Below, one piece after another: positions 28,976 to 29,634 of a stretch of DNA of 64,000 nucleotides. The notes under the pieces are model-generated. The model had not been told where the DNA came from and did not search any database. It saw nothing but the letters and a program-made list of their open reading frames with translations. The DNA is from Chiloscyllium plagiosum. Taxonomy: Eukaryota. Each line of letters begins with the position of its first letter. The stretch's first letter is position 1. The translations under genes and the position numbers were made by a program. The stretch covers positions 49,501,239 to 49,565,238 of the forward strand of contig NC_057718.1 in the NCBI RefSeq assembly GCF_004010195.1. The letters run 5' to 3'.

Positions 28976-29124
28976 AGCATCATGGTATCCTCTACTGATG
29001 CTAAATCCAATGCAGAAAAGGAGTCAATAAATTGCTCTGATCCACCTGGCTAAGCGACATGGTCACATGTTAGAGTAAGATCTCCACTGAGGTCAACAAA
29101 TAATCTACCTTTGAAGTAAGCATC

Positions 29125-29220
29125 CCATTCCTGAAGAAGGGCCTGTGCCCGAAACGTCGAATCTCCTGTTCCCTGGATGCTGCCTGACCTGCTGTGCTGT
29201 TCCAACAATAAAGTTTCAAC
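29125..29220 (+). mobile_element. 96-bp monomeric PLE family-1 insertion beginning at an intact hammerhead motif
   Basis: Perfect 10-bp TSD agtaagcatc (29115-29124, 29221-29230); AATAAA near the 3' end. Confidence 0.85.
29127..29162 (+). ncRNA. Minimal type I hammerhead ribozyme motif (best family-1 copy)
   Basis: ATTC-CTGAAGA-A-GGGC-CTGT-GCCC-GAAA-CG-TC-GAAT: stem I ATTC/GAAT, stem II GGGC/GCCC, palindromic ACGT stem III. Predicted cleavage after C29158. Confidence 0.75.
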
Positions 29221-29634
29221 AGTAAGCATCTAGGCCAGGTAGGTGAGAGTTGATCAGCTTCATGTCAGTTAAAGCCAAAGTGTGTAATAGTTTGGCTTGT
29301 GTGAGGGTTTTGATCCAACGTAGCATTGACAAGTTAGTATGAAGGATGGAATGATGGCAGAAAAGTGGGTTTGGTGTGACATAACATGTCACAAAAACTT
29401 CATGTTGCCAAGTTGGAGCAGCAGCCATGACACAATGGGAGGGTGAGGGCAAGCGGAGGTGTGCCTGACCTTGAAGTGCTCACTCCACTGAGGGAGAGAC
29501 ACTGATGATAGAGGGATAAAGGGGGAGGAGGTGCAGCAAGTGATCACATTTGGTGAGGCTAGAGTTACCAGGCATAAGAGTTAAGCTAGAACATTACTGG
29601 CATATTGTAACTGTCTCTATTTGGTAAAATGAAA

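What the first reader, a model, noticed from the sequence alone, without database searches (positions are those of the whole stretch)
29115..29230. 96-bp TSD-flanked retro-insertion consisting of little more than a complete minimal hammerhead ribozyme
Seen: a perfect 10-bp TSD encloses 96 bp that start 2 nt before stem I of ATTC-CTGAAGA-A-GGGC(CTGT)GCCC-GAAACGTC-GAAT and end shortly after AATAAA. Known: Penelope-like element pLTRs carry minimal type I hammerheads with a very short palindromic stem III, thought to cleave as dimers. Inference: this is either a non-autonomous, retrozyme-like mini-element mobilised by PLE RT/GIY-YIG or an extreme 5' truncation product.
Basis: partly seen in the sequence, partly recalled or inferred. 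Interest (0 to 1): 0.72.

Follow-up and report, generated by a model that had tools for sequence, protein, structure and literature searches.

The report
Hammerhead-tipped Penelope retroelement stub
This 96-base insert is real and recent (two related species lack it at the same spot), but it is an ordinary short end-piece of a very abundant Penelope-like jumping gene whose small ribozyme motif likely rode along uncut.

Summary
A perfect 10-bp duplication flanks 96 bp that carry a minimal type I hammerhead with a predicted cut after C29158. Contigs of two related species show the empty site with one target copy. The insert is one arm of a Penelope-like (PLE) pLTR family: 10 loci in this window and 16,000-24,000 contigs per run in three species. 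Its 3' end is the family's 'short' end (8 of 16 scored arms); the other class adds a 34-39 nt tail. One window copy runs from that tail into an ORF start related to a full-length GIY-YIG-bearing PLE protein. AATAAA is a trait of a young species-specific subfamily; there is no poly(A). Six of 17 arms start within 2 nt of the hammerhead's first base and none at its cut site, so the template was uncut and the 5' end is not random; it may be the RNA start (untested). Retrozyme membership fails: solo copy, no tandem. Rfam finds nothing. Minimal hammerheads in truncated PLEs are published, and this scan noted the family many times elsewhere in this genome. Ordinary; low interest.

The parts
29115..29124 (+). 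Left copy of the 10-bp target-site duplication
   Evidence: single copy at the empty site in organisms B and C
29125..29220 (+). 96-bp insertion: one arm of the PLE end module, from the hammerhead's front edge to the 'short' 3' end
   Evidence: 76-86% identical to other arms in the window
29127..29162 (+). Minimal type I hammerhead motif (stem I 29127-30/29159-62, core 29131-37, extra A 29138, stem II 29139-50, GAAA 29151-54, loop-less palindromic stem III 29154-57)
   Evidence: descriptor features as in PMC4209133
29158..29159 (+). Predicted self-cleavage site (after C17); intact in this copy
   Evidence: hammerhead numbering (established knowledge); activity untested
29207..29212 (+). AATAAA, part of a signature of a young subfamily of organism A; no poly(A) follows
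   Evidence: table 3; absent from 13 of 14 aligned arms
29221..29230 (+). Right copy of the target-site duplication
12789..12883 (-). Second single-arm copy with nearly the same ends, 11-bp duplication at 12778-88 / 12880-90
15310..15820 (-). Longer family copy: tail, ORF start (Met at 15745), internal deletion, upstream pLTR, hammerhead, short end; links the family to a PLE ORF

Best explanation
The 96 bp is a target-site-duplicated insertion of the hammerhead-bearing end module of an abundant Penelope-like retrotransposon, likely made by the element's own reverse transcriptase/GIY-YIG protein priming at an internal site of a longer, uncut PLE RNA. SHOWN: insertion with a 10-bp duplication, empty in two related species; member of a high-copy family with two 3'-end classes 34-39 nt apart; family linked to an ORF start related to a full-length PLE protein; sequence intact across the predicted cut site; six of 17 arms share its 5' end. 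INFERRED from the anole Poseidon work: the protein nicks target DNA and starts copying at the 'short' site 82 nt past the start of stem II; two-arm insertions come from priming on both strands and this copy kept one arm. INFERRED, about even odds: copying ran off the RNA's 5' end, a transcription start at A29127 in an initiator-like TCATTC context, which would explain the recurring unit length. The hammerhead is predicted inactive as a lone copy and is likely a passenger here; any role lies in the parent element's RNA.
For: Empty sites. 10 family loci in the window, 9 of 10 with 10-15 bp duplications, 7 of 10 head-to-head two-arm insertions. 3' ends: 8 of 16 scored arms end at 29219-29221 in this copy's coordinates, 5 at +34 to +39, the PLE 'tail' pattern (PMC8557442, PMC3846280, PMC11167929). 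ORF link: 15745-15587 (minus) is 70% identical to P0003 1-54; P0003 matches the N-terminus of the 882-aa P0027 (E 5.7e-7; 29% over 137 aa), which carries Pfam GIY-YIG above cut-off. In runs, loose ends continue upstream into a shared pLTR sequence (251 RNA reads, agreement 0.66) and downstream into the tail (227 reads, 0.60). 5' clustering: p about 0.001 under uniform stops over an assumed 75 nt; four arms of a sister subfamily start at the equivalent A with unrelated flanks; 7 of 12 listed joints with letters between land on 29126-28, three with a single extra G before 29127 (table 5c). In the anole element RT starts internally at two sites a tail apart, both strands are primed and uncut RNA is the main substrate.
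Against: No RT or endonuclease of this very family was found in the window; the link to a full PLE is a two-step homology at 29%, and no library named an RT domain in P0027 (RT and DKG motifs read by eye). The transcription-start step is untested: no pile-up of read starts or ends in the RNA run (table 6), this copy has CC, not G, before A29127, one of the three extra Gs can be templated, two window arms and many contigs pass upstream of the point, and in Drosophila Penelope the start lies before a 75-bp intron whose end abuts the hammerhead. With a narrower assumed span the clustering weakens (p 0.014). I could not tell whether reads with the AATAAA signature are the ones that continue into tail and upstream pLTR. 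The organism-A contig over the 3' junction has only 25 letters inside the element, below the tool's 31-letter bridging rule.
Confidence: 0.75

Rival explanations
1. Same PLE by-product, but the 5' end is a stop hotspot, not the RNA start: RT primed at the 3' pLTR of a full transcript falls off or switches template just after the hammerhead (RNA structure, bound protein, or AT microhomology with the target or the second arm). This competes only with the 5'-end step of the best explanation.
For: Other arms stop at 29132-35 and 29146-51 (stem II), so the motif is a stop-rich zone; several junctions at ATT show 2-3 nt microhomology; arms at 15403 and 32950 pass through; contigs with upstream pLTR are common (table 7).
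Against: Stops sit on the same A in two subfamilies whose local sequence differs (ATTC, AGTT), both in an initiator-like context (initiator consensus recalled); extra G at three joints.
Confidence: 0.3
2. A self-renewing, non-autonomous mini-element: copies that begin at +1 carry an internal promoter and the RT start site, are transcribed on their own and are re-copied by PLE protein, like a SINE.
For: Two single-arm copies of 91-96 bp with duplications in this family and one of about 100 bp in the sister subfamily; Penelope's promoter lies in the transcribed region; putative non-autonomous PLE partners exist in Chlamydomonas; a young subfamily specific to organism A.
Against: Arm lengths and inversion points differ from copy to copy; RNA reads lie on both strands in similar numbers and 2004 of 2008 run on into unrelated or longer sequence, none on this locus's unique flanks; in the anole element the protein needed RNA up to 172 nt into the ORF, past the start sites, which a 96-nt unit may lack.
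Confidence: 0.1
3. A monomer of a non-LTR retrozyme that spreads through a hammerhead-cut, circularised RNA.
For: Type I hammerhead; vertebrate retrozymes derive from PLE pLTRs and leave solo monomers (bioRxiv 10.64898/2026.07.22.740005); one low-depth contig each in organisms A and B goes back from 29204 to 29126, a possible head-to-tail pair.
Against: No tandem array in the window; motif is the minimal PLE type, not the canonical type of described retrozymes; ends are fixed at the PLE short end and the hammerhead's front edge, not permuted; 7 of 10 loci are inverted pairs.
Confidence: 0.04

Closest known systems
Minimal hammerheads (min-HHR) in pLTRs of metazoan Penelope-like elements (Cervera and De la Pena 2014, PMC4209133)
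   Same: Type I topology, no helix III loop, palindromic 15.2-16.2, extra nucleotide between 9 and 10.1, G10.1-C11.1, 4-bp helix I; most motifs occur as single copies tied to truncated PLEs, some as close opposite-strand pairs.
   Different: Helix II is 4 bp (7-8 bp in the Schistosoma families). No shark example in the text parts and one supplement I searched (supplement file 1 could not be searched). That paper does not map copy ends.
Poseidon of Anolis carolinensis (Frangieh et al. 2024, PMC11167929)
   Same: Hammerhead upstream of two RT start sites one tail apart; similar spacing (here 82 and about 116-121 nt from the start of stem II; there an AC-rich stem-loop at 111-118); inserted RNA is uncut.
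   Different: There the ORF starts inside the hammerhead; here the ORF start lies about 43 nt after the tail. Clade here is probably Neptune-like (Zn-finger-like motif in P0027, read by eye). No activity was tested here.
PLE insertion architecture with inverted pLTR and 30-40 bp tail (Arkhipova et al. 2013, PMC3846280; Craig et al. 2021, PMC8557442)
   Same: Head-to-head arms, tail on one arm, 8-10 bp duplications there and 10-15 bp here.
   Different: This copy has one arm only and no ORF sequence.
Non-LTR retrozymes (Cervera and de la Pena 2020, PMC7229834; Li et al. 2026 bioRxiv)
   Same: Short, non-coding, type I hammerhead, long duplications, PLE kinship.
   Different: Those are tandem repeats, typically 150-450 bp with canonical hammerheads and circular RNAs; this is a solo 96-bp arm with a minimal motif.

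Membership tests
PLE minimal hammerhead | Core C3-A9, G12-A15.1, U16.1, H17 with stems I and II | tested here: met
PLE minimal hammerhead | Extra nucleotide before 10.1, G10.1-C11.1 pair, palindromic 15.2-16.2, no stable helix III | tested here: met
   A29138, G29139-C29150, ACGT 29154-57
PLE minimal hammerhead | Core conserved across family variants | tested here: inconclusive
   0 of 11 core positions vary at >=10% against 4 of 6 free positions (p 0.006; 2 of 14, p 0.037 with CpG sites), but only 7 of 42 downstream positions vary; reads pre-selected at 80% and 3 rows hidden
PLE minimal hammerhead | Self-cleavage as dimer or with protein | not testable with these tools
   no pile-up of RNA ends in one poly(A) single-cell run, which is a weak test
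Endonuclease-bearing PLE insertion | Target-site duplication with empty site | tested here: met
Endonuclease-bearing PLE insertion | Family shows inverted pLTRs and optional 30-40 bp tail | tested here: met
   7 of 10 loci two-armed; 3' ends in two classes
Endonuclease-bearing PLE insertion | pLTR and tail lead into an ORF of RT plus GIY-YIG type | tested here: inconclusive
   ORF start linked by two-step homology to an 882-aa protein with Pfam GIY-YIG; RT of this family not seen, RT in P0027 read by eye only
Endonuclease-bearing PLE insertion | Clade assignment by RT phylogeny | not tested
   no RT sequence of this family in hand
Non-LTR retrozyme | Tandem repeats, each unit with a hammerhead | tested here: not met
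   solo copy; 0 of 7 tandem-repeat rows in the window involve the family; two low-depth contigs hint at rare pairs
Non-LTR retrozyme | Canonical type I hammerhead with helix III and loop-loop contacts | tested here: not met
   minimal motif; Rfam 0 hits. The 2026 preprint also admits minimal motifs
Non-LTR retrozyme | Monomeric linear and circular RNA | not testable with these tools
   only a poly(A) library was laid
Poly(A)-tailed LINE/SINE insertion | A-rich or simple-repeat tail before the duplication | tested here: not met
   insert ends in family sequence directly before the duplication

The most novel reading that the evidence does not exclude
A29127 is the capped start of the PLE transcript, the hammerhead is the very first structure of that RNA, and copies like this one are complete run-off cDNAs that keep an internal promoter and an RT start site, so that they form a self-renewing 95-135 nt, polymerase II-driven SINE-like partner of Penelope-like elements, with a species-specific burst in organism A.
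Probability: 0.1. Interest if true: 0.55.

Novelty: new member of a known kind. Interest (0 to 1): 0.2.

Why it matters
As a single insertion it matters little: minimal hammerheads in truncated PLE copies number in the thousands in fish, coelacanth and frog genomes. Two modest uses remain. It is a clean, dated case (filled in organism A, empty in B and C, flanks 2.9% apart from B) that marks a young subfamily and could serve as a lineage marker. And the shared 5' end at the hammerhead's first base, never at its cut site, bears on the open question of what PLE hammerheads do: it fits the in vitro result that uncut RNA is inserted and gives one testable prediction, capped RNA ends at A29127.

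Tried and rejected
Whole genome: none held, so no genome-wide copy count or tree. Rfam: 0 hits. DNA pattern scans: 0 loci in viral contigs, 3 in metagenomes, 3 in prokaryote genomes; I read L001 (bacterial-looking, chance match) and the three genome hits are titled Algoriphagus; L002 and L003 were not read. Search for full-length relatives of P0003 1-165 by word index: none. PDB and NCBIfam did not name an RT in P0027. No RNA holder was listed for the stretch; this says nothing on expression. AATAAA as end signal: rejected (see above). Cleavage-defined 5' end: 0 of 17 arms start at 29159. Splice acceptor as the cause of the 5' end: the two long copies have CCTC, not AG, before ATT; an acceptor-like AG lies 4-20 nt upstream, not followed up. 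Downstream promoter element like Penelope's: only a partial, shifted match by eye; not used. Copy number from contig depth: not derived, the tool says summed depth is no copy number. Folding energies of a two-copy hammerhead (-14.3 kcal/mol against a dimer minimum of -19.5) neither support nor exclude dimer cleavage. I did not build a covariance model.

Full report
1. Observation. The 10-mer at 29115-29124 recurs only at 29221-29230 and encloses 96 bp; such a repeat arose in 0.56% of 5000 random placements. The hammerhead is as described: stem I 29127-30 with 29159-62, core 29131-37 (N7 = A), one extra A, stem II 29139-50 with a 4-nt loop, GAAA, the loop-less palindrome ACGT and C17 at 29158. 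The descriptor found 3 sites in the window against 0.01 expected. The full 96 nt is not unusually stable (z 0.76). Rfam has no match.

2. The insertion is real and recent. I laid four public runs on 28900-29450 at 80% likeness (4 of the 24 runs listed). A 672-nt contig of organism B joins 29114 to 29221, skipping 106 nt with ten letters fitting either side: the empty site with one target copy. Organism C shows the same skip with 27 letters on the short side. B's flanks differ from the window at 12 of 413 letters. One organism-A contig covers 29196-29450 with one difference; it has only 25 letters inside the element and may come from the assembly's own sample.

3. It is one arm of a large family. 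The window holds 10 loci of the family. Nine of 10 have 10-15 bp duplications, three of them imperfect as scored. Seven of 10 are head-to-head pairs; two are single arms (this one and 12789-12883 minus); one is a longer copy. In the runs 24,023, 16,090 and 22,708 contigs were laid for organisms A, B and C, nearly all depth on 29109-29222.

4. 3' ends. Of 16 arms scored by script, 8 end at 29219-29221 in this copy's coordinates, 5 end 34-39 nt further on, and 3 end elsewhere (29212, 29215, 29243 with an internal deletion). A 17th arm (51857-51915 minus) was read from blastn and carries the tail. Each two-arm locus pairs a shorter with a longer end. This is the optional 30-40 bp PLE tail (PMC8557442, PMC3846280; passages), which in the anole element lies between two internal RT start sites (PMC11167929, parts 1-2 of 4 read).

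5. Link to a PLE ORF. At 15310-15820 (minus) the tail is followed about 43 nt later by a Met (15745) and 54 codons that are 70% identical to P0003. The nearest named hits are from Chiloscyllium, Hemiscyllium, Stegostoma, Rhincodon and Heterodontus, so the genome is probably a carpet-shark-like shark. P0003 matches the N-terminus of the 882-aa P0027, which has a Pfam GIY-YIG domain above cut-off. RT-like, DKG and Zn-finger-like motifs in P0027 were read by eye; no library named the RT. The link is two-step and distant, so 'Neptune-like' is inference.

6. AATAAA. It is in 1 of 14 aligned arms, arms without it end at the same place, and no poly(A) follows. It is not private either: in organism A about 99% of contig depth at 29209, 29211 and 29213 keeps this copy's letter, against 8-31% of a far smaller depth in B and C; C29143, G29145, C29173 and G29199 are likewise kept in 24-48% of depth in A and 1-9% in B and C; contigs at least 99% alike number 2167, 99 and 178. 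The copy therefore belongs to a young subfamily that spread in organism A. A29205 is nearly private (3% in A).

7. 5' ends. Six of 17 arms begin at 29125-29127, two at 29132-35, four at 29146-49, three further down, two pass upstream, and none begins at the cut site 29159 (the arm at 1045-1128 placed by eye because the script mis-aligned its palindromic centre). A scan statistic gives p about 0.001 for uniform stops over an assumed 75 nt and 0.014 over 15 nt. Four arms of a sister subfamily start at the equivalent A with unrelated flanks. In the runs, diverse loose ends sit before 29127 (214 RNA reads, agreement 0.40) and 29128 (105 contigs, 0.32), while others continue into a shared upstream pLTR sequence before 29126; 630 rows were not shown. 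Seven of 12 listed joints with letters between land on 29126-28, three with one extra G. The family context TCATTC resembles an initiator (consensus recalled), so a transcription start is a fair guess. Against it: no pile-up of read ends in the RNA run, CC before A29127 in this copy, and a different layout in Drosophila Penelope (PMC2377424 passages).

8. The ribozyme. The insert spans the cut site, so its template was uncut or re-joined. Published minimal hammerheads were inactive as monomers and weak as dimers (PMC4209133, parts 1-2 of 4); the anole motif needed protein and was dispensable for insertion. Across family variants 0 of 11 core positions vary at 10% or more against 4 of 6 free positions, but the non-ribozyme downstream part also varies little (7 of 42), so this is not proof of selection. 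In the one RNA run (2% read) 2008 reads were laid, on both strands, 2004 only in part, none on this locus's unique flanks, 1525 over C29158, with no end pile-up. That fits read-through of many genomic copies and is a weak test of cleavage.

9. Comparison. It works like, and by the tested features belongs with, short PLE insertions carrying a minimal hammerhead. It fails the retrozyme tests of tandem arrangement and canonical motif (PMC7229834 passages); the 2026 preprint (parts 1-3 of 5) reports PLE-derived retrozymes and solo monomers in vertebrates including one cartilaginous fish. Seven searches returned no paper that maps PLE copy ends to the hammerhead's front edge or describes this shark family; the library is partial, and supplementary figures of PMC11167929 and PMC4209133 that I could not see may bear on this. 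PMC5753468 and PMC8969392 (passages) added only background.

10. Earlier notes. I wrote down the family reading and the RNA-start idea before looking. The scan already holds 156 notes on this genome that fit 'hammerhead Penelope', several with the same 5' clustering; these are unchecked and not independent support.

11. Verdict. Observation confirmed; interpretation partly supported; new member of a known kind; interest 0.2.

Noticed in passing
window 14432-14530 (-), 24224-24320 (-), 44251-44347 (-), 40346-40450 (+), 25547-25687: Sister PLE subfamily; four arms start at AGTT just before the hammerhead core; 14432-14530 is a single arm of about 100 bp with an 11-bp duplication, the same design as the finding.
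   Followed up: partly
window 38180-38371, 45325-45431, 54513-55599, 55964-56149: Third hammerhead-bearing PLE family (stem III palindrome AGCT, 5-bp stem II) with ORF remnants: N-terminal part at 54873-55319 (-) and a GIY-YIG-like piece at 55348-55599 (+, E 0.003). Its arms do not cluster at the hammerhead's front edge.
   Followed up: partly
window 15310-15820 (-): Permuted unit: begins exactly at the tail start, runs into the ORF start, has a large internal deletion and ends at the short end; no duplication found.
   Followed up: partly
window 32744-33059: Two-arm insertion whose long arm keeps about 160 bp of upstream pLTR but has lost the hammerhead core between ATT and GAAA; perfect 15-bp duplication.
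   Followed up: no
window 15420-15435 (-) and loose ends before 29126: A pyrimidine-rich stretch ending in AG about 20 nt upstream of the hammerhead looks like a splice acceptor, as in Penelope's 5' intron; untested.
   Followed up: no
joints 29204 to 29126: One low-depth contig each in organisms A and B goes back to the arm's start, a possible head-to-tail pair.
   Followed up: no
window 19856-20872 (+), 21282-21620 (-), 53626-54021 (-), 60782-61159 (-), 31678-31974 (-): LINE reverse-transcriptase fragments (CR1-like and another type, judged by eye).
   Followed up: no
window 12302-13868: Frames with Gag/protease/RT-like wording suggest a decayed LTR retrotransposon (by eye); the single-arm copy at 12789-12883 sits inside it.
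   Followed up: no
P0003, P0004, P0041: Database proteins named 'uncharacterized' or 'mucin-2-like' in sharks are read-throughs of this PLE's ORF start; P0041 has a 30-aa piece of it after an Ig-like domain.
   Followed up: no
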